Of a stretch of 64,000 bases of DNA, positions 2,507 to 63,547 are shown piece after piece; the stretch's first letter is position 1; every line of letters starts with the position of its first letter. Below the pieces are notes generated by a model. It was not told the DNA's origin. It made no database searches and saw only the letters and a program-made list of their open reading frames with translations. The stretch is from a candidate division WOR-3 bacterium (lineage in GTDB: Bacteria; Hydrothermota; Tepidihabitantia; Tepidihabitantales; CAIPLT01). Position numbers and translations under genes: made by a program. The DNA lies in assembly GCA_026418155.1 (NCBI GenBank), contig JAOABV010000001.1:457-64456 (forward strand), read 5' to 3'.

Positions 2507-2592
2507 CCCATAATGGCGAAATCAAAGTCGAAAGCGAAGTTGGCAAAGGAACAAGATTTATTATTACACTTCCGCAATATAGTTGCGTGTAA
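2421..2592 (+). repeat. ~86-bp tandem duplication of the phoR 3' end; copy 2 is a decayed, non-coding copy containing the TTG at 2583
   Basis: 2421-2506 vs 2507-2592 differ only by scattered transitions; both copies end ...cacttccgcaatatagt(a/t)gcg(c/t)gtaa. Confidence 0.85.
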
Positions 2593-3071
2593 AGATTTAC
2601 GAGCATATAACCGTGAATGTGAATAAGAAAAAGGTCTTATTCATCTGTACCCATAATTCTGCACGGTCGCAAATGGCTGAAGGATTACTAAATCATTTAT
2701 ATGGCGATAGATACGAAGCATATAGCGCCGGCACTCAACCAACCATGGTAAATCCTTATGCAATTAAAGTGATGCGGGAGATTGGCATTGATATTTCACA
2801 CCATCGGTCAAAAAGTGTGCAGGAGTTTCTAAATCAAGAAATAAATTATGTAATAACTGTTTGCGACAGCGCTAAAGAAACCTGTCCATTCTTTCCGGGT
2901 GGTAAAAAACGACTACACCAAAGTTTTCAAGACCCTTCAGACTTTACTGGCAATGAAGAAGAAACCCTAAATATCTTTAGGAAAGTAAGAGATGAGATAA
3001 AAATGTGGATTGAGGAGACCTTTGCTAAAATAATCAAAGAAAATACAGAAAATTCCGAAAACCCCGCTTGA
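2583..3071 (+). CDS. arsC: thioredoxin-coupled arsenate reductase ArsC (LMW-PTP family); true start is probably GTG ~2622
   Basis: P-loop CTHNSARSQMAEG; downstream VITVCDSAKETCPFFP Cys pair as in Staphylococcus/Bacillus ArsC; C-terminal ...FRKVRDEI... Confidence 0.75.
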   Translation: MRVKIYEHITVNVNKKKVLFICTHNSARSQMAEGLLNHLYGDRYEAYSAGTQPTMVNPYAIKVMREIGIDISHHRSKSVQEFLNQEINYVITVCDSAKETCPFFPGGKKRLHQSFQDPSDFTGNEEETLNIFRKVRDEIKMWIEETFAKIIKENTENSENPA

Positions 3072-3085
3072 CTTCTTAGGTTATC

Positions 3086-3300
3086 TATTAGGCAATTTAA
3101 TCGGCAGGCTATTAGGTAATTCAAAGGTTAACACAAAAGGTATTCTAAGGGGTATACCCCCGGGCAAGCCCCTAAACAAGCCGATGGGCTATCGACTGGC
3201 TGACCCCTCGGTCTGCCCAAAGGATTGCACAAGGAACAACCCAAGTGTTTGTCCAAAGGATTGCCGATTAAACAAGTCAGGGCAATTGGTTTTAGGATTA
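3086..3300. repeat. GC-rich structured non-coding segment related in motif content (ggcaagcc, cctcgg, taggtaa) to the elements at 15002 and 50352
   Basis: Local GC spike in an AT-rich genome; internal direct repeats ccaaaggattgc x2 and ctattagg x2; no ORF. Confidence 0.4.
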
Positions 3301-3506
3301 ACAATATTAAAATTTAATTCCTGTTGCTGACGCTACATCTTGCGTCAATCCAGTCAAAACCAACTATATCTACCTTAACCAAATCTTAACAATCCGTTTA
3401 TATTCTCTTAACTGGAGGCTGGTATATTTTAGGCGTATGAATGATAATTTTATTTTGGCGTTTGCCACCAGTAAATTTCTTGAGCCACTTCGTATTGTAA
3501 AAAGTG

Positions 3507-3600
3507 TTAATCTCCGCGCTGATTTACCACATCTCCTAAAAATTCACCACATAGTGCCCTCCTTGTGGTTTTTAAATCAGCGCGGGGTTAACACAAAATA
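3507..3600. other. long imperfect hairpin (21-nt stem, ~45-nt loop with nested stem); candidate structured RNA or terminator. The overlapping ORF 3437..3751 is probably spurious
   Basis: gttaatctccgcgctgattta ... taaatcagcgcggggttaac inverted repeat; nested ccaca...tgtgg. Confidence 0.4.
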
Positions 3601-3743
3601 TGTAAAGAAAGGAGGCAAAGTCCGACAAAAACTAATAAAAGATGCCTTGGCAATAAAACCGCCATGCATCTTTAAGGTCATCACAAAATTTATGTATCAA
3701 TTATTATTAAATATATATAAAAAATTAAAGGAAGGAGATAATA

Positions 3744-4145
3744 ATGTTTAACATTGGCACAATGTTTTTGACAGTTTCAGCACTATCGTTCTCTCCTGCT
3801 AATATTACAACCGCTCAAGCGAATAAAATTTCCGAATTACGACTATATGCAGATAATGGACAAGAACTCCTTTCGGCTGAAGGGATGATGCCTGAAATCG
3901 TTGTTACTGCTGAGTATCCGCAAACGTCCTCTACAACTAATCAACCCAACAAATTTCAACAGATTAACGATTACTTCACATTTATTGTTAATGTGCTAAT
4001 TGTCCTATTCTTTATGGGAATGGGAATTACAACATTATTATCAAAATGGAAAAGACGCAAAGGTCATAAGAAAGAAAAAGGTCCATTTTCCCTTCCGCCT
4101 TTTTCTAATAAAAATATCGATTTAGGCAAGGATTATGCCTGCTAA
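3744..4145 (+). CDS. hypothetical small exported/membrane protein (N-terminal signal-like segment, C-terminal TM, basic tail)
   Basis: ORF only; hydrophobic N-terminus and IVNVLIVLFFMGMGITTLL TM segment. Confidence 0.35.
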   Translation: MFNIGTMFLTVSALSFSPANITTAQANKISELRLYADNGQELLSAEGMMPEIVVTAEYPQTSSTTNQPNKFQQINDYFTFIVNVLIVLFFMGMGITTLLSKWKRRKGHKKEKGPFSLPPFSNKNIDLGKDYAC

Positions 4146-9895: not shown

Positions 9896-10552
9896 ATGAT
9901 GTTATTAGATATGAAATTGTTGGCATTAAAAAAATCGTTAATCGATTATGCGACGCTGGTTGAGCATATGATTGATAAAGTAATGACCGGACTCCTGAAA
10001 AAAGAGAAATCCCTATTACAAGAACTGATTGATAAGGATGAACCCAAAACCAACCAATTAGAATTAGAAGTAGAAGAACTTGGTACTAATCTTATTGCCC
10101 AATATGAACCTAAGGCGAAAGACTTAAGAATTGTCTTGATGGTTCTGAAAATTAATAATGATTTAGAACGAATCGGTGACCATTTAGTTAATATTGCTGA
10201 AAGCGCTTTATATCTAATCGAACGACCACAGGTTAAACCTTTAATTGATATTCCGAAAATGGCTGATTTAGTAATTAAGATGCTCAAAGATAGTATCACG
10301 GCATTTGTCAATGAGGATGCAAAATTAGCCCAATCAGTATGTGAACAGGATTCAGTGGTCGATAGTTTATTAGAACAAGTGATTCGCGAATTGATAACTT
10401 ATATGACCTCGGACCCGAAAACGATTGAGCGCTCGTTGCATTTAATTCGGATTGCCCATAATCTGGAGCGCATTGCTGACCTCTCAACTAATATCAGCGA
10501 GGATGTGATATTTATTGTTGAAGGACGGGTAATTAAACACCATAAAATGTGA
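9896..10552 (+). CDS. phoU: phosphate signalling regulator PhoU
   Basis: Two PhoU repeats (...DLERIGDHLVNIAE... / ...NLERIADLSTNISE...). Confidence 0.9.
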   Translation: MMLLDMKLLALKKSLIDYATLVEHMIDKVMTGLLKKEKSLLQELIDKDEPKTNQLELEVEELGTNLIAQYEPKAKDLRIVLMVLKINNDLERIGDHLVNIAESALYLIERPQVKPLIDIPKMADLVIKMLKDSITAFVNEDAKLAQSVCEQDSVVDSLLEQVIRELITYMTSDPKTIERSLHLIRIAHNLERIADLSTNISEDVIFIVEGRVIKHHKM

Positions 10553-12526: not shown

Positions 12527-12656
12527 AAACTTCTGCTAAAGTCAATTTCTACTAATATTTGATTATCGCGATACTCATAGATACCAACGATAATATGTAT
12601 TTTAATATGCTGAAATCAATTTTTTATGCTGTTTCAGATTGATTGATACTCCAAGA

Positions 12657-12685
12657 TTGACACAGATATTATCGTGATTTATAAT
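12657..12685 (+). promoter_or_regulatory. consensus sigma70 promoter TTGACA-17-TATAAT upstream of the M14 peptidase gene
   Basis: ttgaca 12657-62, tataat 12680-85. Confidence 0.5.
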
Positions 12686-12707
12686 TTTATATGAAATTTT
12701 TTAATTA

Positions 12708-14966
12708 ATGGAGCAAAATATGAAGAAGAAGTTTTATATTATCGGATTATTATTAATCTTTTTTAGCATTTCTGTAGTAAATGCTAAGACAATGATTGTC
12801 CGAGTTTATGCAAAAAATTACCAAGAACTATCAAGACATATTGACTTTAAGTATACCAACATTGAAATTGCTGGGGCTAAACCACAAGAATGGTATGAAC
12901 TAATCGTAGAATCTGAAGATTACCCCACAGTACTGACATCAGGATTGAAAAGTCAAGTTATAATTGAAGATTTAGAACTCCAGAAAGCGGAAATTCTTTC
13001 CCGAGCCCAATATCGCAGTTTAGATTCAGTGAATTTAATGTTAAGAAGTTTTGTCAGTTCCGCACCTCAGATTTGTGTTTTGGAAAGCCTTGGCCTGTCT
13101 TACGAAAATCGTCAAATATACGGTGTGAAAATCTCTGATAATCCCAGTATTTCCGAACCCCAAGAACCCGGTGTCTTCTTTTGCGGGCTACATCATGCTC
13201 GAGAATGGGCAACAATAGAAATGTGCCTTTTTATTATTGATTCCATCCTTCGGGGTTATCGAACTGTTCCAGAAATTCAAAATTTAGTTAATAATCACGA
13301 AATCTGGGTCTTTCCAGTTATCAACCCTGATGGCTATTATTATGACTATCCTTTACGACGCTCGTGGCGTAAGAATCGACAACCATTTGGTGGCTCGATT
13401 GGCACAGATTTGAACCGTAACTATCTTGGCGCGTGTAATGGTGACCGATTTGGACTTTGGGGCGCTTTAACCTCTGGTGCCCAAAGTTCTCATTCACCTT
13501 CCAGCGAAACCTTTATGGGACAATTTGGTGCGTCCAGTCCGGAAATAAAAGCCCTGGTTAACTTCTTTAGAACCCATAATATCAATGCCTCTTTATCATT
13601 TCATTCTTATTCAGAACTGGTTCTCTGGCCTTGGGGTTATCAAAATATTCCAACGCCTGATAATACCTTATATCAACGAGTCGGCACGCAAATGGCAAAT
13701 ATGATTCAAAAATTATCCGGCGGCACCTATACTCCGCAACAGAGTCCTTTACTTTATCCGGTCTCCAGTGGCAGTGATGATTGGATATACGGTTGGAATA
13801 AATTTGTTAATGGTGTTCCTTGTCTGGCTTTTACTAATGAAATCGGCACTTCATTTTACCAAGCACTCACTGATGTTGACCATATCATAAGACAGAATTT
13901 CAAGGCCGTGGTCTTCTTGACAAATTTTTCTGATAGCGTCAGAATTTTAATGAAAGGTTATGTGCCACCACCACAAATAAATGTACCTGACACAAGCACC
14001 TCAAGTAATTTTGTTGTCTCTTGGAAGCCCAAAAATCCAGAGTTTAATACGCCAAATATGTGGGAACTGCAAGAATTATCAAATTACAGTGTTTTTCAAG
14101 ACCAATTTGATACGCTCTTACCAGCCTGGCAAGTTCAAGGATTTATATTAAGCAACCGAAGAGCATACTCGGGTTTAAGAAGTATGTATTCAGATTCAGC
14201 CAATAACATTTCCAACTATATTCGCACAACTTATCCTTATTTAGTTAATCCTGGCGACTCTTTGACTTTCTGGTGTTGGTATAATCTTGAAAGAAACTAT
14301 GATGTTGCAGTTGCTGAAGTCTCTTTTAATACTCGAGAATGGTTCCAATTAGGAACTCGCATGACCGATACTTCTGGTGGTTGGAGAAGAATTGCTTATT
14401 CTTTAGAGCCATATGTCGGCAAATCAATCTTCATCCAATTTAGAGTAATGACTGATGGCAGTGTTTTGAAAAATGGATTCTATCTTGATGATGTCTATCC
14501 AGTGCCGATGTTTAATAACACTCGCATCATCTCTTCTAATATAACTGACACTTTTTATTCAGTTGCTGTATCTCAACCCGGACATTACTGGTATCGAGTG
14601 CGAGGCCATAATGTAACAAATGGCTGGGGTGAATATAGTATGCTCGATGGTGTTGAGGTTTTGTCAACTGCTCTTGCCGAAACCAAAAAGAAAGATTATA
14701 TTACTTTCAATATAATGCCAAATCTTTTCTCAGACAATACCCTGATTAAATATAGTGTGCCTTATGAAAGTAAAGTTGTCTTAAAATTATATGATATTAC
14801 TGGTCGAGAGCGCGTGCAATTAGCCAATCACATCCATAAACCAGGGATGTATCAAATCAATTGGCAAAGAACCGATAACTTACGAAAGAAATTACCTTCA
14901 GGTATATACTTTCTTAAACTAAATATCGACGAAAAAAGATTCACTAAACGAATCATAGTCTTATAA
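12708..14966 (+). CDS. M14-family zinc carboxypeptidase with T9SS C-terminal sorting domain
   Basis: Signal peptide; M14 motifs ...GLHHAREWAT... (HxxE), ...NPDGY...R..NRNY..., SFHSYSEL; C-terminal ...GIYFLKLNIDEKRFTKRIIVL. Confidence 0.85.
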   Translation: MEQNMKKKFYIIGLLLIFFSISVVNAKTMIVRVYAKNYQELSRHIDFKYTNIEIAGAKPQEWYELIVESEDYPTVLTSGLKSQVIIEDLELQKAEILSRAQYRSLDSVNLMLRSFVSSAPQICVLESLGLSYENRQIYGVKISDNPSISEPQEPGVFFCGLHHAREWATIEMCLFIIDSILRGYRTVPEIQNLVNNHEIWVFPVINPDGYYYDYPLRRSWRKNRQPFGGSIGTDLNRNYLGACNGDRFGLWGALTSGAQSSHSPSSETFMGQFGASSPEIKALVNFFRTHNINASLSFHSYSELVLWPWGYQNIPTPDNTLYQRVGTQMANMIQKLSGGTYTPQQSPLLYPVSSGSDDWIYGWNKFVNGVPCLAFTNEIGTSFYQALTDVDHIIRQNFKAVVFLTNFSDSVRILMKGYVPPPQINVPDTSTSSNFVVSWKPKNPEFNTPNMWELQELSNYSVFQDQFDTLLPAWQVQGFILSNRRAYSGLRSMYSDSANNISNYIRTTYPYLVNPGDSLTFWCWYNLERNYDVAVAEVSFNTREWFQLGTRMTDTSGGWRRIAYSLEPYVGKSIFIQFRVMTDGSVLKNGFYLDDVYPVPMFNNTRIISSNITDTFYSVAVSQPGHYWYRVRGHNVTNGWGEYSMLDGVEVLSTALAETKKKDYITFNIMPNLFSDNTLIKYSVPYESKVVLKLYDITGRERVQLANHIHKPGMYQINWQRTDNLRKKLPSGIYFLKLNIDEKRFTKRIIVL

Positions 14967-15001
14967 TCTTTTCCAGAGCGGTATTGGGCATTCTCGGTTG
15001 A

Positions 15002-15240
15002 CCTATAGATAAGCCCCTCGGCAAGCCAGGGGGCAGGCCGAGGGGCATACCGGTCGGCTACCCGCCGGCATACCCTTCCGACCACCCAATCTACAAATAT
15101 TTATATCGTCCTTTAAGTGACCGAATGATTTAACCTCTGGATTATCAATAGGATAACAGAATAAGTCGCCTAATCTTTTGCTTACCCGGTCAATCAGGCC
15201 AGCAGATAAAAATCTTTAATAGGTCGGACCTGCTTTTTTA
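15002..15240 (+). repeat. GC-rich ~170-bp repeat element, copy 1 (core 15044-15200), immediately 3' of a T9SS cargo gene
   Basis: ~85% identical over >110 bp to 50470-50620 (..gcatacccttc[ct]gaccacccaatctacaaatatt..gtcctt..agt.acc.aatgatttaacc.ct.gattatcaataggata..); contains cccctcgg...ccgagggg hairpin. Confidence 0.7.
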
Positions 15241-15260
15241 TTGGGATTATATTTAACCTT

Positions 15261-16802
15261 TTACATCAAACTTCTATCAAAATTCCGATATTGGATAGCC
15301 TCAGAGATGTGGGCAGGTTTAATGTTAATACTTCCTTCTAAATCAGCAATTGTCCGGGCAACTTTTAAGATTCTATCATATGCCCGGGCAGATAACCCAA
15401 CTCGGTCAATCGCATTTTTTAATAATCCTTCACTGGTTGAATCAATCTCACAGAACTTCCGAATCTCTTTTGTCTCCATTTGGCTATTACAATAAATTGG
15501 CTTTTTCTTCTTTATCTCCTTAAACCGTTCTAATTGGATTTCTCGGGCTTTATTTACCCGCTGGCGAATCTTTTCTGATGGTTCTCCGGGCTCTTTTTTG
15601 GCTAATGACTCATATTTAATGGATGGCACTTCAATATGGACATCAATTCTATCTAAAAGTGGACCGGAAATCTTGGCTCGGTATTTTTTTATCATATGAA
15701 TCGTGCAAGTGCATTCTTTATGTGGGTCTGAGAAAAATCCACAAGGACAAGGATTCATTGAAGCAATTAACATAAACCGGGCCGGATAAGTGATAGTTGA
15801 TTTTGCCCGACCAATGGTAACAAAGCCATCTTCTAATGGTTGACGCAATGATTCTAAAACATCACGGTGAAATTCCGGCAACTCATCTAAAAATAGAACT
15901 CCGTTATTTGCTAAAGATACCTCACCTGGCCTGGGATAAGCACCACCACCAATTAATCCGGCTTCAGAAATTGAATGGTGCGGTGAACGAAACGGACGAG
16001 TCGCAACAATTGGTTGATTCGGCGCTAAAGTGCCAGCAACACTGTGAATTTTAGTTGTTTCTAACGATTCTTCCAATTCCATTTTAGGAAGAATTGTCGG
16101 TAATCTTCGAGCCAACATTGTCTTACCAGTTCCCGGTGGACCTAACATTAAAATATTATGACCGCCAGCCGCGGCTACTTCTAATGCCCTTTTAGCGTGT
16201 TCTTGTCCTTTCACTTCAGCAAAATCGACACTATAATCTGATGCGGACTGAAAAACATCTTCAAAATCGGATTTCAATGGTTCAATTGTCTTTGTGCCAG
16301 ACAAGAATTGAATTACTTCAACTAAATTTTCTGCGGGATAAACATTTGCGCCCTTTACTAATGCTGCTTCTGGTCCGTTTTCTTTAGGTAAAATAATACC
16401 CGAAAAATTCATATCTCTTGCTGCCATTGCCATTGAGATTGCTCCTCGGATTGGACGCAAAGTTCCATCAAGGGAGAGTTCGCCAAGAATTAAAAATTTT
16501 GAGAGAATGTTAGAACGAAACACACCTAAGGCTAATAGCATTCCAATGGCAATTGGTAAATCAAAGATTGCGCCTTCTTTTTTAATGTCGGCTGGAGCTA
16601 AATTAACTGTAATTCTGCGCACCGGAAGTTTATATCCGGAATTTTTTATTGCTGCGGTTACTCGATGTTGCGACTCTTTGACCGCATTATCTGGTAAGCC
16701 CACAATCACAAAAGAATGCAACCCATAACTCATATCAACTTCCACATCAACAATATAAGCATCAATGCCAAAAATGCTGGCTGAATAGACTTTTGCTAAC
16801 AT
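15261..16802 (-). CDS. comM: YifB/ComM-family Mg-chelatase-like AAA+ ATPase
   Basis: Walker A GPPGTGKT; ChlI/MCM-like sensor motifs; N-terminal Lon-like domain. Confidence 0.9.
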   Translation of the reverse strand: MLAKVYSASIFGIDAYIVDVEVDMSYGLHSFVIVGLPDNAVKESQHRVTAAIKNSGYKLPVRRITVNLAPADIKKEGAIFDLPIAIGMLLALGVFRSNILSKFLILGELSLDGTLRPIRGAISMAMAARDMNFSGIILPKENGPEAALVKGANVYPAENLVEVIQFLSGTKTIEPLKSDFEDVFQSASDYSVDFAEVKGQEHAKRALEVAAAGGHNILMLGPPGTGKTMLARRLPTILPKMELEESLETTKIHSVAGTLAPNQPIVATRPFRSPHHSISEAGLIGGGAYPRPGEVSLANNGVLFLDELPEFHRDVLESLRQPLEDGFVTIGRAKSTITYPARFMLIASMNPCPCGFFSDPHKECTCTIHMIKKYRAKISGPLLDRIDVHIEVPSIKYESLAKKEPGEPSEKIRQRVNKAREIQLERFKEIKKKKPIYCNSQMETKEIRKFCEIDSTSEGLLKNAIDRVGLSARAYDRILKVARTIADLEGSINIKPAHISEAIQYRNFDRSLM

Positions 16803-21300: not shown

Positions 21301-21692
21301 CTATTTTTATGAAATGTCAAGAACAAAAGAACCTTTTGACAAGATTTTTTGTAGGCCTATTAGGAAGGCGTTTTCAAGATTTCTATGTTAAGGGGCTAGG
21401 GTGGGGCTAACCCGTTTTTAGCATTGGGAAAGGCAATATCTGACTTATATGCGGTAGAGAAGGTCGCTTATCAGGTAGAAAACGCTTAAAAAGATTATTC
21501 GTTGTCTTAGATATATTTTATCTTAGATCCTATTGTCTTGTAGGATGTAATCAATATAGTAAATATTTGCCCTGATAAGTGTCTTTGCTTCTTATCTTGT
21601 TAATAATCCAACGAGATTTAAGGCGTTATAATTTATCAGGAATTATAATAATTTTTACTAAAGGTTGTGTGCTAAGAAAGAAATTAAAACAT

Positions 21693-22090
21693 ATGAGAAA
21701 AACTTTTGTCTAAATCTTTAATTTAGACTACACTTCCTTCATCTCAATCGTGTTTTCTTCTTATCATATAGTTACCCAATATTAACAAAATAAGGTATTA
21801 TAAATATATCAATTGAAGTGTATGAGAAAACTCGTTGTCTAAATCTTTAATTTAGACCTCACTTCCTTCATCTCAATCGTGTTTTCTTCTTATCATATAT
21901 TTACTCAGTGTTAATAAAATAAGATATTATAAATATACCAATTGAGGCTTATGTGAAAACTCGTTATCTAAATCTTTAACTTAGATTAGACATCACTGAT
22001 TCCGACCGTGTTTTCTTCTTATTGTTCTTGTTATCCTTTACTGTTGACAGATAAGATATTATAGTTATAAATTATAAATATAAAGTTAAT
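21693..22090. repeat. 3 x ~129-bp degenerate tandem array, each unit carrying a 21-bp palindrome GTCTAAATctttaATTTAGAC (third copy degenerate)
   Basis: Palindromes at 21707-21727, 21836-21856, 21986-22006; units share atgagaaaac...gtgttttcttcttat... Confidence 0.8.
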
Positions 22091-26246: not shown

Positions 26247-26527
<281 letters not shown>

Positions 26528-27715: not shown

Positions 27716-27975
27716 ATATTTTATTTAAGGTTGTTTTTTGATACTTTTTACCTTTTGGGAATATCTCATACATTTTTTGTTCATTTTTTCCGATTAGAAA
27801 TTTGCCTTCTTAAGGTTGCCTTTTGATTCTTTCACCTTTTGGGAGTATCTCATACACTTTTCTGTTCTGTTCACTTTTTTCCGATTAGAAATTGTTTTCT
27901 TAAGGTTGTTTTTTAATTCTTTCCCCTTCTTGAAGTATCTCGTAGGCTTTTTTCTGTTCACCTTTTTCCCGGTAA
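27716..27975. repeat. 3 x ~93-bp tandem repeat; the innermost copy is the coding 3' end of the TPR gene (minus strand), the outer two are decayed copies with stops
   Basis: cttaaggttg.tttt.a..ctttc.cc.t.t.g.agtatctc.ta...tttt.tgttca at 27716, 27807, 27900. Confidence 0.8.
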
Positions 27976-29534: not shown

Positions 29535-29725
29535 TATCTTTAAAGTCAACTATATTTAACATATTATGTCTAAATTTACCCAGAATATTATATGCTACCA
29601 TAAGCAGACACATCTTTATCTTTAACATACCAAGTCTATATTTAACCAGAACATATACATTACCATTAAAAGAGCATCATTTATCTTTAACATAGCAAGT
29701 CTAAATTTATTCAAAGTATTTATGC
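29535..29725. repeat. dispersed ~70-bp repeat family, locus D (two tandem partial copies)
   Basis: ctttaacata[cg]caagtcta[ta]atttaa.. at 29621 and 29684. Confidence 0.65.
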
Positions 29726-29740
29726 TATCTTTTTATTTAC

Positions 29741-34193: not shown

Positions 34194-34751
34194 ATGATTA
34201 CACCTAATGATTTTCGACCTGGACTTTTAGTTCGATATCGCGATGACATTTGGGAAATAGTCGAATACCAACGCGTAAAAATTGCCCAACGCCGTGCCTT
34301 TGTCCGAACTACCTTTCGCCACCTACTAACCGGCAAGACAATTGAAGAAAATCTCTCTTCCGAAGAAAAACTGGAAGAACTACAAGTCGAGCGCAGAAAA
34401 TGCCAGTATCTATATAACGATGGCGAAAACTATCACTTTATGGAACTTGAGCACTACGACCAATTTGCCCTATCAAAAGAGATTTTAGGTGATAAGGTTC
34501 TCTATCTTACAGAAAACACCATCGTCGACATTCTATATGTTGAAGCCAAACCCCTAACAATAGAAGTACCCAACTTTGTAGAACTAACCGTGGTCGAAAC
34601 CGAACCTGACTACAAAGGCGATACCGCAACCGGTGGTGGCAAACCCGCAAAATTAGAAACCGGTCTTGTAATATCAGTCCCTTTCTTTATTAAAGTTGGT
34701 GATAAAATCCGAATCGATACCAGGTCTAATTCATATGTGGAAAGAGTCTAA
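34194..34751 (+). CDS. efp: elongation factor P
   Basis: 185 aa KOW/OB architecture; ...KPGKG.AF.R.. Confidence 0.9.
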   Translation: MITPNDFRPGLLVRYRDDIWEIVEYQRVKIAQRRAFVRTTFRHLLTGKTIEENLSSEEKLEELQVERRKCQYLYNDGENYHFMELEHYDQFALSKEILGDKVLYLTENTIVDILYVEAKPLTIEVPNFVELTVVETEPDYKGDTATGGGKPAKLETGLVISVPFFIKVGDKIRIDTRSNSYVERV

Positions 34752-34902
34752 AGAATTTTACACCTAAAGATAATCTAACTCTTATGGAGAAAGAGTCTAA
34801 AGATTTTGCAACTAAAGGCAATCTAATTATTATTAAGAAAGAATCTAAAGATTTGTGTCTGAAAGAGTCTAAAAAATTTGCAATTAAAGGTAATTGTTAT
34901 CA
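34738..34902 (+). repeat. 4 decaying tandem copies (~40-50 bp) of the efp 3' end including its stop codon
   Basis: gtggaaagagtctaaagaatttta... / ggagaaagagtctaaagattttgca... / aaagaatctaaagatttgtg... / aaagagtctaaaaaatttgca... Confidence 0.8.
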
Positions 34903-48169: not shown

Positions 48170-48345
48170 CTGGTCTTATCTTTTACGAAAATCACTTATT
48201 AAAGTCTTATTATCAGTACCTGGTTTACAATCCAAATCTACACCTAATTAGAGCAAAACTATTGTCAATTATAACTAATAAATATTAACTGTCAACTAAA
48301 TATTTAACTGTCAACCTTACCATTGGCAGAAATTATCGTTATTTA

Positions 48346-48424
48346 CCATAGGAGGATATATCTTTATTTTTAGCATAGCAAGTCTAAATTTACACAAAAT
48401 ATTATACCCTACCATAGGTAGACA
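48346..48424. repeat. dispersed ~70-bp repeat family, copy B (flanked by accatagg direct repeats)
   Basis: ccataggaggatatatctttatttttagcatagcaagtctaaatttacacaaaatattataccctaccatagg. Confidence 0.7.
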
Positions 48425-48649
48425 GATACTATTTATTCCAACTCTGCGCTCGCAAAATTTATCAGAAATTATATATATTTTATTATTATATTATTTAATA
48501 AACATAAACTTGGTGCGATTGATTACAATTTAGTAGTATATGAAATAGTGAGATAGCAGAGTCTGATGTAAATATATATAGAGATAGCGCTAAGAATTTT
48601 GTGTAATTTCTTTTTCTTCCATACAGACTTATTCTTTCATTATCTGTTT

Positions 48650-48698
48650 TCTTTAACATATCAAACTAAAATTTACACAAAATATTATACCCTACCGA
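48650..48698. repeat. dispersed ~70-bp repeat family, partial copy C
   Basis: ctttaacatatcaaactaaaatttacacaaaatattataccctacc. Confidence 0.6.
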
Positions 48699-49015
48699 GA
48701 AAGATTATTAGCAACTTCTATTTCTCATTGTTGACTTGGGCTAAATAATACTTATAATCAATGTAAAATGGAATCATTTTTAGGTCGCTTTTATCCTTTA
48801 TTCCTCGAATTCTTGCGCAATCTTTTTGGACAAAACATCAGAATAGTCCAGTCCTTGATATTAAACTACCAAACCTAATGACAGATTCAAGTCAGTGTAA
48901 CGGCGCTAATTAAAAACCTTAATCAGTTAAAGTGTAACATTAAGCACTATGCCAACTGATTTATTAAACACTTATGAACAAGAGCAAAAGGTAATTTAGC
49001 GACTTTCGCATTATC

Positions 49016-50155
49016 TTGATTTTACAGCACTTGTTATTTCTTCTGCCTATTTTTATAATCGGCCAGCCTTTACAAAATCGGATACTTGTGGCAACCTCTG
49101 CTGATGGTCTTACATTTCATAAACTAAATATGATTTTTTGCGATTCGGCTGATGTGCCTGATGCTATAATTGGTCCGAATAACTCGGTCTATCTTTTTTA
49201 TCAAGGACTCATAACTCATTGGTCTGATGGTATTAAAGTGGCAATTTCTAATAATGGCATAAATAATTGGCAACACTATCAAGTTATAATTCCTGGCACA
49301 GAGAACTGGCCCGGAAAGCCTTGCGACCCTGATGTGATTATGTTTGGAGATACTTTTAGATTATATTTTACTGGTGACCCAATTAATGATATGCAACCAG
49401 AAACTTATTCTGCATTCTCATTAGACGGTATTCATTTCAATTTGGAAAACGGTATCAGATTTCAAGTTGCGGGTTTTCCTGTGCTTGACCCTACTTTATT
49501 ATGGACCAATGGAACTTTACAATATTTTGCTGGTGGTGCACCGGCAAATTTTAATTGGCACGCCCATTCTACTAATGGCTTACAATTTGTTCAGCAATCT
49601 AATTTTAATATCAATAACCTGATGATGGCAAATGGTATTTCTGCAATTACCAGTGGTTATCGTTTTTATTGTTTTAGCAACAATCCCAATGACCGTAATA
49701 TTAGGTCTATTTATTCTTCTGATGGAGAGAACTGGATACTTGAAAATGGATTTCGGCTTCAACACGACTCAACCAATCCTTTAGAATATCTTTATGTTAA
49801 AGACCCAGCAATCGTTTATAAAGATAGTTGCTATATTATGTATTATGTTACGCGCAAGCGACCAAATTGTCTTGAAGAAACGCCAGACAATTCTCAAAAA
49901 ATAATTATCTATCCTAACCCATTTTCAATTACAGTTCAAATTCGGTTAGGTTGTGACATAAAAAATATTAATATTTATGATAAAACCGGCAGGTTAATTA
50001 AATCGTTTGGGTCTGAACACTACATCTATTGGAACGGAAGAGATAATTATAATAGAATAGTTCAATCTGGTATCTATTTTCTTGGTTTTGAAAAGAAAGG
50101 AAAAAAATTTGTTAGGAAAATAATAAAAATAGATAAAATATATTTTGATGAATGA
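49016..50155 (+). CDS. secreted T9SS cargo protein, beta-propeller glycoside-hydrolase-like (GH43/32/130-type fold guess); TTG start, upstream ATG 48975 out of frame
   Basis: Signal-like N-terminus; repeated aromatic/Gly blades; C-terminal ...GIYFLGFEKKGKKFVRKIIKI sorting-domain signature. Confidence 0.55.
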   Translation: MILQHLLFLLPIFIIGQPLQNRILVATSADGLTFHKLNMIFCDSADVPDAIIGPNNSVYLFYQGLITHWSDGIKVAISNNGINNWQHYQVIIPGTENWPGKPCDPDVIMFGDTFRLYFTGDPINDMQPETYSAFSLDGIHFNLENGIRFQVAGFPVLDPTLLWTNGTLQYFAGGAPANFNWHAHSTNGLQFVQQSNFNINNLMMANGISAITSGYRFYCFSNNPNDRNIRSIYSSDGENWILENGFRLQHDSTNPLEYLYVKDPAIVYKDSCYIMYYVTRKRPNCLEETPDNSQKIIIYPNPFSITVQIRLGCDIKNINIYDKTGRLIKSFGSEHYIYWNGRDNYNRIVQSGIYFLGFEKKGKKFVRKIIKIDKIYFDE

Positions 50156-50351
50156 AAGAAAATATTAAAAAAATAAGTTATCTTGAAAACATTAAAAAAT
50201 AAGTTTTATTAACACAAAAGGGATAAAGAAATAAAAATTTTAATTGTCGTGCTTAATAAAAATTTTAGCAACGATTGTAGAAATTTTGGTAAAATAAAGC
50301 CAAGATTATTCTTTTCCTCCAGATTTTTAATGTTACAGACTACTTTTTTAA

Positions 50352-50640
50352 CAGACAGTTCCTGTAATCAAGACCTATACCTTCGCTTTAACCACTCACT
50401 TCCCTGACATCCTCGGTTACCTAATAGGTAAGCCGGTCGGCAAGCCAGGAGGCAAGCCAGGAGGCAAGCCGGGGGGCATACCCCTCGGCAACCCACCGGC
50501 ATACCCTTCTGACCACCCAATCTACAAATATTCAGATTGTCCTTTTAGTAACCTAATGATTTAACCCCTCGATTATCAATAGGATAGTAGATAAAGTCAC
50601 CTAATCCTTTACCTTCTCGGTGAAACAGACCCGCGGCTCA
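50352..50640 (+). repeat. GC-rich repeat element, copy 2 (core 50470-50620), ~250 bp 3' of a T9SS cargo gene; carries (ggcaagccagga)x2.5
   Basis: See 15002..15240; embedded start-less ORF ...GKPGGKPGGKPGG..PPAYPSDHPIYKY...MI*. Confidence 0.7.
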
Positions 50641-50979
50641 TTTGATTAGCAAGGGTCGGGTTAGGCCAAAACCGGAAATATGCGCAGACTCAACCTAAAC
50701 CCACTAAAGATACTAACCTACCCAATGGAATTTACAGTGCAATATACCGGTTAATCCATTGCTTATATCTTTATTACAAAAATCCGAGTAAGTCATTCCC
50801 AACCATCCTTTATAATCAAAGCGGAGTTTACGAACCCTCAGTTATTAATAAAAAACTCCTTGATAAAACCTAATTTTCTATTTAATGTTTAGATGCTTTA
50901 TCTATCTTATTAAAATCCAATATGTTAATAACTATTAGCTCTTGTTGTCTTGTTTTGTTAAGTGACTTATGGTTAATTT

Positions 50980-52005
50980 TTAGTCAATGCAGAAAGGATT
51001 TTCGCAACCCTGACGGCAATTTCTGATTATCACATCTTTTTTGCCCTGATATAATTCTGTAGAAAAATAGCGTTCGGAACGGTCAGGTAAGACCGTTACC
51101 ACAATCTTATCTTTGCCTATTTTCTTTAACACATTAATTGCACCTAAAACATTTGCGCCTGATGAAACTCCCACCATCATGCCTGATTTCTGGCATATTT
51201 CTCTTGCCATTTTAACTGCATCAATGCTTTTTATGGGTTCACACCAGTCGATAAGATTAATATCAACTAATGCCGGAACAAAACCTGTACCGATGCCAAA
51301 TATCTGATGGGGCATAGGCTTTTTACATCCAGTTAATACCGCAGATTCTTCGGGTTCTACCGCGATAATTTTACATTCAGGATTTATTTCTTTTAATTTC
51401 CTACCAACACCAGTTAAAGTGCTGCCAGTGCCTACTCCGGCGACAAAAGCATCTATTCTTTTATTTTCCATTTGCTTGCTTATTTCTTCGCCGGTGGTTT
51501 TATAATGGCAAGCAATGTCTTCAGGATTCTCAAATTGTTTAGGTAAAAATACTTTGGGATTATTGTCTGCAATTTTGCGTGTTCTGGTTAATGCACCTTG
51601 ATAAAATTCTTCTTGCGGAGTAAGACATATTTCTGCGCCTAACATAGTTAATATTTTCTGTCGTTCAATACTAACATTTTCTGGCATGACTATAATACAC
51701 TTATATCCTTTAACTGCACAAACCATTGCAAAACTAATACCTGTATTACCACTGGTGGCTTCAACTATTATTGAATTAGGACTTAATTCGTGTCGACTTT
51801 CTGCTTGCTCAATAACATATTTAGCAATACGGTCTTTAATACTGCCAGTTGGATTTAAGAATTCCAGTTTAGCAAAAATCCGCCAGTTTTCGTTCTCATA
51901 TTTAATGTTTAATTCAATTAATGGAGTGTTGCCTATAGCATCTAATACTGTGGAGATCGGTTCGGTGCGTATGAAATTTTCTAACATAGAAACGATTATA
52001 GCCAA
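50980..52005 (-). CDS. PLP-dependent cysteine synthase family protein (CysK/CysM-like) with Cys-rich C-terminal tail
   Basis: PLP lysine ...NPTGSIKDR..., ...ATSGNTGIS..., ...GVGTGST...; extra C-terminal ...NCRQGCENPFCID (C-x3-C-x4-C). Confidence 0.75.
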   Translation of the reverse strand: MAIIVSMLENFIRTEPISTVLDAIGNTPLIELNIKYENENWRIFAKLEFLNPTGSIKDRIAKYVIEQAESRHELSPNSIIVEATSGNTGISFAMVCAVKGYKCIIVMPENVSIERQKILTMLGAEICLTPQEEFYQGALTRTRKIADNNPKVFLPKQFENPEDIACHYKTTGEEISKQMENKRIDAFVAGVGTGSTLTGVGRKLKEINPECKIIAVEPEESAVLTGCKKPMPHQIFGIGTGFVPALVDINLIDWCEPIKSIDAVKMAREICQKSGMMVGVSSGANVLGAINVLKKIGKDKIVVTVLPDRSERYFSTELYQGKKDVIIRNCRQGCENPFCID

Positions 52006-52039: not shown

Positions 52040-52306
52040 TAAATAAAATCTGTTTTAAGGTTTAACAAGGTAGAGCAATTAAAAATATATAATTTTAATA
52101 ATATTATTAAGATAAAAACTATTATTATTTATTATGTGGATAACTAAAGAATACCTAAAATACATAATAAACATATATAAACTTAATCCACATCCGATAA
52201 AATCTTTTTTGTTATTTGTGGATAAGAAAGATCAAACAGACAAATTTACTTTCTTTGTAGTGGATAATTACTACATTTTCAACAAGTTTTCCACAACTTA
52301 TCCACC
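52040..52306. other. oriC part 1: DnaA-box cluster downstream of dnaA
   Basis: TGTGGATAA 52136-44, AATCCACA 52185-92, TGTGGATAA 52218-26, AGTGGATAA 52259-67, TTTTCCACA 52287-95, TTATCCACC 52298-306. Confidence 0.7.
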
Positions 52307-53665
52307 GTTTATTAACATTAGAACCTTTTGAATTTTTTGGGCAATATCCGGGTTTGATTTTTTAAGTTCTGTTATTTTTTCAATAGCGTGAATGACTGTA
52401 GAATGGTCCTTACCACCAAAAATTGACCCGATTTCTTTAAGCGACATTCCTAATAAGGTGCGTAAAAGATACATTGCAACCTGCCTGCCTAAAGCCAAAT
52501 TCGCAGTCCGCTCTTTAGATTGCAACTGTTCAACAGTAACCCCAAATTGTTTCGCAACTACATCAATGATTTTCAATGGCTTAGGTTTTTCATAGGTGAT
52601 ATGTAGGTCTGAAAGAACCTGTTTACAGACATCTAAGGTTAGCGGAGTATTGGTTAAGGATGCGTAGCCGGCTAAGCGAATCAAACAGCCTTCTAATTCC
52701 CGGATATTGGTTTTTATGTTTTCTGCGATAAAGTAGATGATTTCCGGGTCAATGTTTATCGATTCAGTTTTGGCTTTATTATTTAGAATGGCAATCCTTG
52801 TTTCTAAATCTGGTGGTTTTAAGTCGCAGACTAAACCTGACAATAACCGTGAAACTAAACGCTCTTCTAAGGTAGGAATTTCTCGAGGCGGTCGGTCTGA
52901 GGTGAAAACAATCTGTTTACCCATTCCCTGAAGGTAATTAAAGAGATGAAAGACTTCTTCTTGTAACCGTTCTTTGCCTTTAAGATAGTGAATATCATCA
53001 ATTAATAATAAATCTAAGTTGCGGTATTTATTATTAAAGGCGAATTGGTTTCTTTCTTGGATTGATTGGATAAGGTCTAAAAAGAAGAGTTCTGCGGGCG
53101 TGTAGCAAATCTTTGCTTGGGGATTGTTATTTTTGACATAATTGCCAATAGCGTGCAAAAGGTGAGTTTTACCTAATCCCACTCCGCCATAGATAAATAG
53201 TGGATTATAAGTTTTGGCAGGTGCTGTTGCTACTGCTTTACAAGCAGCATAAGCAAATCGGTTCGATTCTCCGATAATAAAATTATCAAAGGTATATCGC
53301 TCAATAAGTCGTGATTGATTGGTAAGTCGATTTGAGGTCTGATTATGAGTAGAGATATGTTTGGCTGCTGTAGTATTATTGGAATAAGTATTTTCTGTGT
53401 TGGTCGATTCAGGCGAAGACTCTTCAGGTATTACTGTGAAATTTATCTTTAGATTTAATTGAGTAAGAACCTGAGATAAAGCATTTGAATAATATTCAGA
53501 AATCCATTCAATAAAGAATTGATTTGGAGCTCCAACTTCTAAAGAACCGTCATCAAGATTAAGTGGTCTTAAAGGACGAAACCAAGCAGTAATCGCATCT
53601 TGATTAATTAATTCACTCAGACCGGAAATAATTTTTGACCAGACTTGCTCTTTCAATTCGCTCAT
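52298..53665 (-). CDS. dnaA: chromosomal replication initiator DnaA
   Basis: AAA+ ...GGVGLGKTHLLHAIGN..., ...LLIDDIH..., C-terminal HTH ...SKERTANLALGRQVAMYL... Confidence 0.95.
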   Translation of the reverse strand: MSELKEQVWSKIISGLSELINQDAITAWFRPLRPLNLDDGSLEVGAPNQFFIEWISEYYSNALSQVLTQLNLKINFTVIPEESSPESTNTENTYSNNTTAAKHISTHNQTSNRLTNQSRLIERYTFDNFIIGESNRFAYAACKAVATAPAKTYNPLFIYGGVGLGKTHLLHAIGNYVKNNNPQAKICYTPAELFFLDLIQSIQERNQFAFNNKYRNLDLLLIDDIHYLKGKERLQEEVFHLFNYLQGMGKQIVFTSDRPPREIPTLEERLVSRLLSGLVCDLKPPDLETRIAILNNKAKTESINIDPEIIYFIAENIKTNIRELEGCLIRLAGYASLTNTPLTLDVCKQVLSDLHITYEKPKPLKIIDVVAKQFGVTVEQLQSKERTANLALGRQVAMYLLRTLLGMSLKEIGSIFGGKDHSTVIHAIEKITELKKSNPDIAQKIQKVLMLINGG

Positions 53666-54100
53666 CGACTACTTATCCACTTCATAAAAAGTTTTCCACA
53701 AAGTTTTCCACAAAACTTAATTTTATAAATGTTTGTAAAATAAAAACTTACCATAAACAAGCTAATTTTTCCACAAATCTATAATAATAATTTTTAATAA
53801 ATTAACTAATTCTCGTCAACAACTTTCTGTATCGCGCAAATGCTCGCATCAATTTTATTAAAGTTTAGAGTTAAGTCAAGATATTTTTTAATTTTGGGAG
53901 TAAAAAATTTTTTCTGTTGCCAAAACCTATTTTGGGAATTGAAAGAATAAATTCGGTTGTTTAATTTTGTCTCTATTTTTTCAATTAATTTTGTGTCTAT
54001 TTTTTCAATTGGTTCTACTTGGGAAAAGAATATATATGACTTTTCTCTGCTCTCATTTTAAGATATTTAATTAAACCTTGTCTGATTAATCGAGAATTTT
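53666..54100. other. oriC part 2: DnaA boxes plus AT-rich unwinding region upstream of dnaA
   Basis: TTATCCACT 53672-80, TTTTCCACA at 53692, 53704, 53767; >85% AT stretch 53740-53830. Confidence 0.65.
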
Positions 54101-58121: not shown

Positions 58122-58325
58122 ATTTTAGCTTGTGTCTCATTATTATAGTAATTATAGTAATTGTTTTGTTGGTTCTGTTTGTATTTTAGCCTTGTGTTTA
58201 TTCTCATTGTATTGTTTTGTTGGTTCTGTTTATATTTTAGTCTTGTGTCACATTATTGTAGTAATTGTTTTTATTGGTTCTGTTTGTATTTTAGCCTTGT
58301 GTTTCATTATCTGTAGTAACATTTA
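58108..58325. repeat. 3.5 x ~60-bp tandem repeat that includes the start-codon region of the 56865..58121 gene (copies have lost the ATG)
   Basis: ggttctgt(gca/ttg)tattttagc.ttgtgt.t.att... x4; ORF 58132..58329 is a repeat artefact. Confidence 0.8.
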
Positions 58326-63392: not shown

Positions 63393-63547
63393 ATTCATAC
63401 AGAGAGACTAAAAATATTAAGTCTTGTAACAGCCGATGGCGACAGTAAAACTAAACCCAGAAATATTTTTGCTTAATTTTTATGATCTGGTTTTTGATTT
63501 CAATTAAAATGAAGAGGACCGCTATTTAATTTTTATATTAAATCAAT

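What the first reader, a model, noticed from the sequence alone, without database searches (positions are those of the whole stretch)
15002..15240. GC-rich ~170-bp element repeated 3' of two T9SS cargo genes (second copy 50352-50640; related segment 3086-3300)
Two copies are ~85% identical over more than 110 bp, in the same orientation, each just downstream of a gene for a T9SS-sorted secreted enzyme.

Both contain a start-less reading frame ending ...PPAYPSDHPIYKY..P.S..MI* and preceded by GKPGG-type repeats. Conservation continues ~50 bp past the stop. Copy 1 contains a CCCCTCGG...CCGAGGGG hairpin.

The element is a strong local GC spike in a 33% GC genome, like the SRP RNA locus here. It could be a small RNA, a MITE, or the relic of a gene fragment that travels with T9SS cargo genes.
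Basis: seen in the sequence. Interest (0 to 1): 0.6.

Follow-up and report, generated by a model that had tools for sequence, protein, structure and literature searches.

The report
GC-rich palindromic intergenic repeat family
A roughly 230-bp non-coding, GC-rich, hairpin-forming repeat occurs three times in this window and in two closely related WOR-3 genomes; it is a lineage-specific small dispersed intergenic repeat, not a gene fragment, and it is not tied to T9SS cargo genes.

Summary
The repeat is real. Copy 1 (14985-15225) and copy 2 (50405-50655) are 83.7% identical over 184 nt (E 5e-53). The 'related segment' is a third, degenerate copy, but on the minus strand (3053-3273). These three are the only GC spikes of at least 55% in the 36%-GC window.

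The family also occurs in a sister WOR-3 MAG, where I found six loci including the orthologous M14-ComM spacer. A degenerate copy lies 3' of ComM in a third genome. I found it nowhere else: not in other relatives, JGI metagenomes, viral contigs, plasmids, phages or Rfam.

Each unit has two parts. The first is a roughly 100-nt GC-rich imperfect palindrome built from 12-nt GGCAAGCC units, and this array is 89% identical between genomes. The second is a roughly 120-nt non-palindromic tail that is 56-71% identical.

The element does not look coding. Frames lack starts or are broken, the variable part shows no codon periodicity, and 1.84 billion representative proteins contain no parent gene.

Copies lie only in spacers that hold at least one gene's 3' end (4 convergent, 5 tandem, 0 divergent). 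They cluster by genome. Neighbours vary, so the T9SS link is coincidental.

Best reading: an ERIC/REP/MITE-like dispersed palindromic repeat that probably acts as a 3'-end stem-loop. I could not establish how it is copied.

The parts
14985..15225 (+). Copy 1 of the repeat, full unit. It fills the convergent spacer between the M14 T9SS peptidase (12708-14966, +) and ComM/YifB (15261-16802, -).
   Evidence: blastn to copy 2. nhmmer gives 14982-15237 at E 1e-74 and 14987-15221. An orthologous copy lies in the sister genome at L022 11555-11795.
14996..15086 (.). Copy 1: GC-rich imperfect palindrome, made of outer arms plus the internal unit array.
   Evidence: Corresponds to alignment A7 columns 27-130. 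The fold has z -3.1 on the + strand and -2.9 on the - strand.
15020..15074 (+). Copy 1: array of about five 12-nt units (GGCAAGCC, GGCAGGCC, GGCATACC, GGCTACCC, GGCATACC). This is the most conserved part of the family.
   Evidence: Tandem Repeats Finder. Period-12 autocorrelation is 0.56. The array is 50-51/54 identical to paralogues in the sister genome.
15037..15058 (.). Copy 1: apical hairpin GCCGAGGGG-CATA-CCGGTCGGC, with an internal GG/GG mismatch.
   Evidence: 5 of 9 pairs show a change on both sides somewhere in the family, against 0/500 shuffles. The hairpin is perfect in copy 2 and in the K-genome copy.
15087..15225 (+). Copy 1: non-palindromic tail that defines the element's orientation.
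   Evidence: Alignments. The tail block is 71.5% identical between genomes, versus 56-59% for the neighbouring segments.
50405..50655 (+). Copy 2 of the repeat, full unit. It lies in the convergent spacer between a 379-aa T9SS-tail protein (49016-50155, +) and cysteine synthase (50980-52005, -). It has one extra 12-nt unit.
   Evidence: blastn. nhmmer gives 50413-50668 at E 7.5e-70. The orthologous spacer in the sister genome lacks both the element and the T9SS gene.
50415..50517 (.). Copy 2: GC-rich imperfect palindrome. It includes the unit array 50427-50505 and a perfect 9-bp apical hairpin (GCCGGGGGG 50468-50476, CATA 50477-50480, CCCCTCGGC 50481-50489).
   Evidence: z -4.0 on the + strand, -3.9 on the - strand. 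Period-12 autocorrelation is 0.65.
3053..3273 (-). Copy 3: a degenerate, inverted copy with a 12-nt insertion, a 12-16-nt deletion and an in-frame stop. It lies between an ArsC-like gene (2583-3071, +) and an unknown 104-aa ORF (3437-3751, +).
   Evidence: nhmmer with a profile that excludes it gives E 9.3e-9 on the minus strand. Period-12 autocorrelation is 0.48. GC spike at 3131-3260.

Best explanation
This is a non-coding, lineage-restricted, low-copy dispersed repeat of about 230 bp, found in a narrow clade of candidate division WOR-3.

**Anatomy.** Each unit has a roughly 100-nt GC-rich imperfect palindrome followed by a roughly 120-nt AT-richer, non-palindromic tail. The palindrome is an array of 12-nt GGCAAGCC-type units. 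Because that unit is nearly its own reverse complement, the array folds back on itself.

**History.** The unit has been copied to new intergenic sites within genomes, and some copies are decaying.

**Likely effect.** It is found only in spacers that contain at least one gene's 3' end. The most likely effect is therefore in cis: once transcribed into the 3' untranslated region of either flanking gene, the -37 to -65 kcal/mol stem-loop would act as a barrier to read-through or to 3'-exonucleases, as described for REP, ERIC and Correia elements.

**Shown here**
- It is a repeat family.
- It lacks the features of a coding gene.
- It has a palindrome and an apical hairpin with compensatory changes.
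- Its genomic placement.
- It is retained at one orthologous site.
- Its sites differ between sister genomes.

**Inferred, not shown**
- That it is transcribed.
- The terminator or stabiliser role.
- That it is mobile rather than spread by segmental duplication or gene conversion. The copying mechanism is unknown.
For: **Family and distribution**
- Three copies in the window.
- Six loci in the sister MAG JBDRUT01 / GCA_965649255.1.
- One degenerate copy in GCA_964473505.1.
- None in about 100 kb from relatives whose ComM is 87-89% identical.
- None among true hits in the metagenome, viral, plasmid or phage collections.

**Non-coding features**
- Missing starts, a frameshift and premature stops.
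- No codon-position bias in the variable 60 nt: 103/112/119 differences at positions 1/2/3.
- The exhaustive protein searches return only ORFs called on the element itself.

**Structure**
- Inverted arms of up to 26 nt.
- Outer palindrome plus apical hairpin: 9 pairs with double changes versus 3.6 in shuffles, 0/500.
- Apical hairpin alone: 5 of 9 pairs, 0/500.
- Folding z-scores of -2 to -5.5 on both strands in nine of ten folds; the degenerate K-genome copy gave -0.6.

**Placement**
- 4 convergent, 5 tandem and 0 divergent spacers.

**Constraint**
- The M14-ComM spacer aligns inside a single 81% HSP between the two genomes, while other spacers between 5 and 26 kb do not align.
- The unit array is 89% identical across genomes, against 56-71% for the rest of the element.

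**Turnover**
- The copy-2 site is empty in the sister genome.
- Copies cluster by genome: copy 1 vs copy 2 is 78%, copy 1 vs its positional orthologue is 70%, and the sister-genome copies L001/4/5/6 are 77-89%.

**Comparison class**
- Location at gene 3' ends, long RNA stem-loops and incidental open frames are described as typical of MITE/ERIC/REP elements in PMC3184786.
Against: - No terminal inverted repeats at the unit's ends and no target-site duplication were found. No clean filled-versus-empty site pair exists: the empty copy-2 site is rearranged.
- No transposase or RAYT was linked to the element. I did not scan every ORF of the window for one.
- Only about half of the unit is palindromic.
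- Minimum-free-energy folds differ in register between copies.
- No U-tract follows the hairpin.
- Canonical intrinsic terminators are not enriched in this genome at all: 13 found versus 14.6 expected in 20 kb.
- The near-invariance of the unit array, including a positional orthologue that is less consensus-like than the paralogues, could instead mean a sequence-specific binding site.
- No expression data exist.
Confidence: 0.55

Rival explanations
1. A family of small RNA genes. Each copy would be an independently transcribed, structured RNA of about 230 nt (trans-acting or protein-sequestering), with the repeated GGCAAGCC / GCC-NNNN-GGC mini-hairpins as binding motifs.
For: - The copies are the only GC spikes in an AT-rich window.
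- Folds are stable and the apical hairpin shows compensatory changes.
- There are almost no indels over 220 nt.
- The element is retained at an orthologous site while other spacers diverged.
- Orientation is independent of the neighbours, and three copies face a gene start on their 5' side, so they would need their own promoter.
- TATAAT-like boxes lie upstream of copy 1 and of L005/L006.
Against: - No promoter or terminator motif is shared by the copies. The TATAAT of copy 1 is absent from its orthologue.
- G.U and A.C mismatches in the palindrome are 19:19, so neither strand is preferred.
- No Rfam match, even at E of 10 or less.
- Folds differ between copies.
- Degenerate copies exist.
Confidence: 0.17
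2. A DNA-level protein-binding array. The five to seven GGCAAGCC units, phased every 12 bp, would be bound cooperatively by a sequence-specific protein, for example a nucleoid or partition-type factor, a recombinase, or a regulator connected with DNA-uptake genes.
For: - The unit array is 89% identical across genomes, while the spacers between units and the rest of the element vary.
- In the orthologue L022 one unit changed from GGCATACC to the consensus GGCAAGCC, while hairpin pairs were broken.
- Period-12 signal persists even in the degenerate copy 3.
- No strand preference.
- GGCAAGCC occurs nowhere else in the 64 kb.
- Three independent loci adjoin ComM, a ComF-family gene and a ComEA-like gene.
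Against: - The same pattern is expected from tandem slippage and gene conversion within an array.
- The K-genome copy keeps the hairpin through compensatory changes but not the unit sequence: GGTATACC instead of GGCAAGCC.
- No candidate binding protein was identified.
- The competence-gene association is post hoc and rests on 9 loci.
Confidence: 0.12
3. A relic or functional small protein-coding sequence: the C-terminal fragment of a (GKPx)n-repeat protein gene, or a small ORF, duplicated along with neighbouring genes.
For: - An open frame runs through most copies and ends at a conserved TAA.
- Unit length and indels are multiples of 3 in copies 2 and 3.
- Differences are mildly enriched at third positions in the 5' part: 48/33/79.
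- NCBI annotates 80-aa and 47-aa ORFs on two sister-genome copies.
Against: - No ATG/GTG/TTG start in either window copy. There is a TGA just upstream in copy 1, a TAG inside copy 3, a 1-nt insertion in L004 and an early TGA in L005.
- No periodicity in the variable 60 nt.
- Four-fold degenerate sites in the array are nearly invariant, while protein-changing substitutions occur in L022.
- Conservation continues past the stop.
- The minus strand is equally open.
- No parent protein in 1.84 billion representatives.
Confidence: 0.03

Closest known systems
ERIC / IRU (enterobacterial repetitive intergenic consensus, ~127 bp)
   Same: - Low-to-moderate copy number.
- An imperfect palindrome in transcribed intergenic regions, often 3' of genes.
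- Copy sets differ between related species.
- Contains incidental open frames.
- Reported to alter stability of the upstream mRNA (PMC3184786).
   Different: - No sequence similarity.
- About twice as long.
- Only the 5' half is palindromic.
- The palindrome is built from 12-nt tandem units.
- ERIC-type elements are described with TIRs, target duplications and flanking TA, none of which I could find here.
REP / BIME (repetitive extragenic palindromes) and their RAYT transposases
   Same: - GC-rich stem-loops in intergenic regions, frequently between convergent genes.
- Act at mRNA 3' ends (PMC3184786, and my own knowledge).
   Different: - REPs are 20-40 nt single hairpins present in hundreds of copies and associated with a RAYT gene (my own knowledge).
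- This unit is about 230 bp, with a handful of copies per genome as far as sampled.
- No RAYT was looked for genome-wide.
Canonical bacterial MITEs (Correia/NEMIS, RUP, Nezha)
   Same: - Under 400 bp with no transposase.
- Multi-copy and intergenic.
- Fold into long stem-loops.
- Often co-transcribed at gene 3' ends.
- Filled and empty sites differ between relatives.
   Different: - Terminal inverted repeats at the element's ends and target-site duplications, the defining marks, were not found.
- The inverted arms are internal and leave a 120-nt unpaired tail.
Rickettsia palindromic elements (RPE) and GC clusters of yeast mitochondrial DNA (from my own knowledge, not tested)
   Same: - Palindromic repeats in AT-rich genomes.
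- RPEs keep open frames on insertion.
- Mitochondrial GC clusters are GC-rich islands in AT-rich spacers that spread and recombine.
   Different: - RPEs sit inside genes, and no copy here lies inside a gene.
- Mitochondrial GC clusters are 30-50 bp.
- No homology was tested or is expected.

Membership tests
MITE (miniature inverted-repeat transposable element) | Terminal inverted repeats at both ends of the unit | tested here: not met
   The repeat finder on 7 copies finds inverted arms of 14-26 nt at 77-86% only inside the 5' half (for example L001 10106-10131 / 10171-10196). None joins the two termini consistently.
MITE (miniature inverted-repeat transposable element) | Target-site duplication flanking the unit | tested here: not met
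   Flanks aligned at both boundaries of 10 copies show no direct repeat. Boundaries are only known to about +/-10 nt, so a 2-3 bp duplication could be missed.
MITE (miniature inverted-repeat transposable element) | Small (<400 bp), multi-copy, intergenic, no transposase ORF | tested here: met
   About 230 bp; 3 copies in the window and 6 or more loci in the sister genome; all intergenic; no credible ORF.
MITE (miniature inverted-repeat transposable element) | Filled versus empty orthologous sites in related genomes | tested here: inconclusive
   The copy-2 site lacks the element in JBDRUT01, but the whole spacer and the T9SS gene differ, so there is no clean empty site. The copy-1 site is filled in both genomes.
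MITE (miniature inverted-repeat transposable element) | Related autonomous IS element with matching ends | not tested
   Only 64 kb plus fetched loci were available. No similarity in the plasmid or phage collections.
REP/BIME | 20-40 nt GC-rich palindrome, hundreds of copies, RAYT gene in the genome | tested here: not met
   The unit is about 230 bp with a roughly 100-nt compound palindrome. The exact-core scan found only 5 sites in the sister genome. The RAYT gene was not searched for.
ERIC/IRU | Sequence homology to the 127-bp enterobacterial consensus | not tested
   No direct comparison with the ERIC consensus was run. The resemblance is in kind only: an intergenic imperfect palindrome at gene 3' ends.
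Small RNA gene (any Rfam family) | Match to a curated covariance model | tested here: not met
   No hit at gathering threshold on the window. Only chance miRNA-type hits with E above 0.4 on four copies.
Small RNA gene (generic) | Own promoter and terminator conserved among copies; strand-specific structure | tested here: not met
   No shared promoter or terminator. G.U: A.C mismatches are 19:19. Both strands fold equally well.
Small RNA gene (generic) | Discrete transcript | not testable with these tools
   No expression data are available.
Protein-coding gene or gene relic | Start codon, intact frame, codon-position bias, homologous proteins | tested here: not met
   The only protein hits, P0001 and P0191, are ORFs called on the element itself.
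   Only 2 of 9 independent loci fit. In L024 the copy stays 3' of ComM without any T9SS gene.

The most novel reading that the evidence does not exclude
The element is not selfish DNA but a selected functional module. Its phased array of GGCAAGCC units (12-nt period) would be a specific binding platform, on DNA or on RNA of either strand. That platform would be maintained near its consensus across species and would be connected with the DNA-uptake and recombination machinery. The suggestion comes from copies adjoining ComM (in three genomes), a ComF-family gene and a ComEA-like gene at independent loci. On this reading it would be a previously undescribed cis-element or riboregulator class in an uncultured phylum.
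Probability: 0.08. Interest if true: 0.65.

Novelty: new member of a known kind. Interest (0 to 1): 0.3.

Why it matters
If the main reading holds, this is a modest addition: a first described small dispersed repeat family for a clade of candidate division WOR-3. It would be useful in three ways.
- As an annotation fix: the 80-aa and 47-aa 'hypothetical proteins' called on it are probably not genes.
- As a marker for strain and species comparison.
- As an example of a GC-rich palindrome persisting in an AT-rich genome.

It would matter more if the near-invariant 12-nt unit array turns out to be a binding platform, or if the adjacency to ComM, ComF and ComEA-like genes holds genome-wide.

Tried and rejected
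**Known RNA families**
- Rfam at gathering threshold on the window, and at E of 10 or less on four copies: nothing.
- tRNA/tmRNA scan: only tRNA-Sec, elsewhere in the window.

**Parent gene**
- Word-indexed search of 5.8 billion protein clusters.
- Exhaustive profile search of 1.84 billion representatives.
- Both returned only ORFs called on the element, plus unrelated low-complexity tetrapeptide-repeat proteins.

**Coding test**
- Substitutions by codon position and synonymous/non-synonymous counts in six frames gave no coding signal in the variable part.

**Wider distribution**
- The 19-base core pattern in JGI metagenomes gave 15 hits. All are chance matches, 13 of them on contigs of at least 49% GC, and none is similar beyond the 22-23 nt of the pattern.
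- Viral contigs: 0.
- Plasmid and phage blastn: no match.

**Other checks**
- Terminal inverted repeats and target-site duplications: not found.
- Long-range 5' GGTTA / 3' TAACC helix: 82% paired but no covariation.
- CsrA-type GGA loops: present only in copy 2 (AGGA loops), not conserved in the other copies (sequence).
- attC-like RYYYAAC / GTTRRRY ends: only one half-site fits, so I rejected this by inspection.
- IHF consensus in the tail: does not fit, by inspection.
- Intrinsic terminator after the element: none by the scan.
- Looking up the window's own contig through its proteins failed twice, so copies outside the 64 kb could not be reached.
- Literature search for WOR-3 repeats found nothing relevant.

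Full report
**1. The observation**

The two copies exist as described. blastn aligns window 15020-15203 to 50451-50634 at 83.7% identity over 184 nt, on the same strand, with E 5e-53. No other hit in the 64 kb exceeds chance.

The upstream genes are a 752-aa M14 carboxypeptidase and a 379-aa protein, both with a Por_Secre_tail domain. The start-less frames, the shared TAA, the conservation beyond it and the copy-1 hairpin are all present. Tandem Repeats Finder reports the unit GGCAAGCCAGGA x3.3 in copy 2 and x2.1 in copy 1.

The window is 36.2% GC. In 100-nt windows, only three places reach 55% GC: 3131-3260, 14961-15120 and 50371-50550.

The third segment is not detectable by blastn. A profile HMM built from seven other copies finds it at E 9.3e-9 on the minus strand (3063-3279), against 0.005 on the plus strand. 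It is therefore a real, degenerate, inverted copy.

**2. Where else the element occurs**

A search with the translated frame found one 80-aa 'protein', P0001. It led to a copy in GCA_965649255.1.

An exact scan of one genome per species, using a 22-base core pattern, found five sites. All are in one MAG, candidate division WOR-3 JBDRUT01, which I call genome J. One of these sites is the same locus as P0001.

Other collections gave nothing:
- The core pattern in JGI metagenomes gave only chance hits, mostly on GC-rich contigs.
- Viral contigs gave none.
- Plasmids and phages gave no blastn match.
- Rfam gave nothing on the window or on four individual copies.

I then fetched orthologous loci through ComM homologues.
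- Genome J (ComM 95% identical) carries the element in the same M14-ComM spacer, in the same orientation (L022 11555-11795, E 4e-51).
- A third genome, K (GCA_964473505.1, ComM 91%), has a degenerate copy about 650 nt 3' of ComM although the M14 gene is absent.
- Loci from genomes with 87-89% ComM identity, about 100 kb in all, have none.

The orthologue of the copy-2 site in J, the cysteine synthase-ABC transporter spacer, contains neither the element nor the T9SS gene.

A profile built from all ten copies finds no further members in 366 kb of fetched sequence.

**3. Anatomy**

The unit is about 220-250 bp and is almost free of indels.

The 5' part (alignment A7 columns 27-130; window 14996-15086 and 50415-50517) is a GC-rich imperfect palindrome. 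Its features are:
- Outer arms of up to 26 nt at 77% complementarity.
- An internal array of five to seven 12-nt units of the form GGCAAGCC-NNNN. This unit is nearly its own reverse complement (GGCTTACC closes the array).
- An apical hairpin, GCCGAGGGG-CATA-CCGGTCGGC.

Period 12 is the strongest autocorrelation in all three window copies, including the degenerate one.

Conservation is uneven. Between the window genome and J, the unit array is 88.7% identical, the arms are 71%, the next 48 nt are 56%, a tail block around ATYTAACC...ATCAA.AGGATAGCAGA is 71.5%, and the end is 59%. GGCAAGCC occurs nowhere else in the window.

**4. Coding?**

The evidence is against it.
- Neither window copy has ATG, GTG or TTG in the open frame.
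- Copy 1 has a TGA just upstream of the conserved part. Copy 3 has an internal TAG. J copy L004 has a 1-nt insertion. L005 stops three codons early.
- Pairwise differences by codon position are 103/112/119 in the last 60 nt of the frame and 138/141/116 after the stop, so there is no periodicity. Only the 12-nt-unit part shows a mild third-position excess, 48/33/79.
- In the array, four-fold degenerate sites are almost invariant, while the positional orthologue L022 carries K>M, R>T and I>K changes.
- The minus strand is equally open in most copies.
- An exhaustive HMMER search of 1.84 billion representative proteins returned only P0001 and P0191 (the ORF on J copy L005), then unrelated low-complexity repeat proteins.

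There is no parent gene on record.

**5. Structured RNA?**

Nine of the ten folds (strands of six copies) are well below dinucleotide shuffles, with z from -2.1 to -5.5; the degenerate K copy is not (z -0.6). The strands tested on four copies fold about equally well, and the best register differs between copies.

Pair counts give modest support for real pairing.
- Outer palindrome plus apical hairpin: 9 pairs with changes on both sides, against 3.6 +/- 1.5 in shuffles (0/500) and at most 7 in slid controls.
- Apical hairpin alone: 5 of 9 pairs (0/500; at most 3 when slid).
- The consensus has a GG/GG internal mismatch. This becomes GG/CC in copy 2, and the whole stem is rewritten as CCCCUAGG-UAUA-CCUGGGG in K.

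These structures were derived from the same sequences, so the numbers lean in their favour.

Mismatches that would be G.U on the plus strand and those that would be G.U on the minus strand are equal, 19:19. No promoter or terminator motif is shared. The TATAAT upstream of copy 1 is not kept in its orthologue.

So pairing is conserved, but nothing points to one transcribed strand.

**6. Genomic behaviour**

Counting orthologues once, there are nine independent loci, falling in three spacer types.

| Spacer type | Count | Loci |
|---|---|---|
| Convergent | 4 | M14 / ComM; T9SS protein / CysK; NrdD / ComF-family; ComM / Tricorn-like in K |
| Tandem | 5 | ArsC-like / unknown; unknown / LptD; FTHFS / ferritin-like; PorQ-like / ComEA-like; unknown / response regulator |
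| Divergent | 0 | none |

Every copy therefore lies 3' of at least one gene. Orientation relative to the neighbours is not fixed, and only two loci follow T9SS cargo genes.

Copies cluster by genome: copy 1 vs copy 2 is 78%, copy 1 vs its positional orthologue is 70%, and J copies L001/4/5/6 are 77-89%. This indicates copying or gene conversion within genomes after the species split.

Between the window and J, the stretch 12654-16802 (M14, spacer, ComM) aligns as one 81% HSP. The other intergenic spacers between 5 and 26 kb drop out of the alignment. The element thus diverges more slowly than ordinary spacers.

**7. Interpretation**

The features fit the general class of small dispersed intergenic palindromic repeats (ERIC, REP/BIME, MITEs). 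A review describes that class as under 400 bp, lacking a transposase, folding into long stem-loops, commonly sitting at gene 3' ends where they are co-transcribed and affect mRNA stability, and often carrying incidental open frames that get annotated as small proteins (PMC3184786).

I therefore read the element as a new, lineage-restricted member of that class. Its likely cis effect is as a stem-loop barrier at the 3' ends of the flanking transcripts, on either strand.

It fails the strict MITE definition. There are no terminal inverted repeats at the unit ends, no target-site duplication and no clean empty site. It is not REP-like in size or copy number. The way it is copied is unknown.

The terminator or stabiliser role is inference. 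No U-tract follows the hairpin, and canonical terminators are not enriched in this genome at all (13 found versus 14.6 +/- 4.1 expected).

**8. What remains odd**

The unit array is closer to the family consensus in paralogues across species (50-51 of 54) than in the positional orthologue (44 of 54). In that orthologue, a unit changed toward GGCAAGCC while pairs were broken. This could reflect gene conversion, or selection on the unit sequence as a binding site.

Three independent loci adjoin genes of the DNA-uptake and processing type: ComM, a ComF-family gene and a ComEA-like HHH_3 protein. With nine loci and a post hoc grouping, this is a lead and not a result.

**9. Verdict**

The gene-relic option and the T9SS link are not supported. 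The sRNA option is unproven.

This is a new member of a known kind and of modest interest (0.3). There is a small chance, about 8%, that the phased unit array is a selected binding platform, which would be more interesting.

Noticed in passing
window 26249-26521 (-): The SRP RNA of this WOR-3 bacterium scores best against the archaeal SRP model RF01857 (98.4 bits, gathering 96.5). That implies a long, Alu-domain-containing SRP RNA. It does not reach 55% GC per 100 nt, unlike the repeat.
   Followed up: no
window 63547-63640 (-): A tRNA-Sec gene (anticodon TCA; 79 bits) is present, so the organism probably makes selenoproteins. I did not look for the sel genes or for in-frame TGA codons.
   Followed up: no
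window 52135-52295 and 53692-53775, flanking dnaA (52298-53665, -): Two clusters of three DnaA-box matches each (TTWTCCACA) flank dnaA, so the chromosomal origin is probably in this window. Repeat copy 2 lies about 1.5 kb from the nearer cluster.
   Followed up: partly
window 21692-22022, 27725-27969, 29551-29727, 58151-58319, 59707-59875, 34725-34854, 2426-2592: There are unusually many long-period tandem repeats, mostly in spacers: 129 nt x2.6, 90 nt x2.8, 65 nt x2.7, 51 nt x3.2, 60 nt x2.8, 48 nt x2.7 and 86 nt x1.9. They are unrelated in sequence to the finding.
   Followed up: no
window 15261-16802; L003 3538-4281 (-); L005 5807-7678 (+): Three independent copies of the repeat adjoin genes of the DNA-uptake type: ComM/YifB, a ComF-family phosphoribosyltransferase and a 623-aa ComEA-like HHH_3 protein. 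This grouping is post hoc and rests on nine loci.
   Followed up: partly
L001 10040-10500, L005 5288-5832, L006 5100-5650 (sister genome): Three sister-genome copies share 450-550 nt, not just the 230-bp unit. The shared stretch includes the first ~15 codons (MSIFKLTKFSQTL...) of the ComEA-like gene, yet only L005 has the full gene. This suggests segmental duplication of the element plus a gene start.
   Followed up: partly
L001 10001-10243 (P0001) and L005 (P0191): The public annotations-aa and 47-aa hypothetical proteins that consist of the element's open frame. They are probably spurious gene calls.
   Followed up: yes
window 12657-12685 (+): A perfect sigma-70 consensus (TTGACA-17-TATAAT) lies 23 nt upstream of the M14 peptidase start. 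If it is used, copy 1 would be transcribed as that gene's 3' tail.
   Followed up: no
window 48170-50979 vs L034 11003-11950: Between the ABC transporter and cysteine synthase, the window genome has 2.8 kb (a T9SS-tail gene plus repeat copy 2) where the sister genome has an unrelated 950-bp spacer. An rve integrase fragment lies about 8 kb upstream of dnaA (roughly 10 kb from cysteine synthase) in the sister genome.
   Followed up: partly
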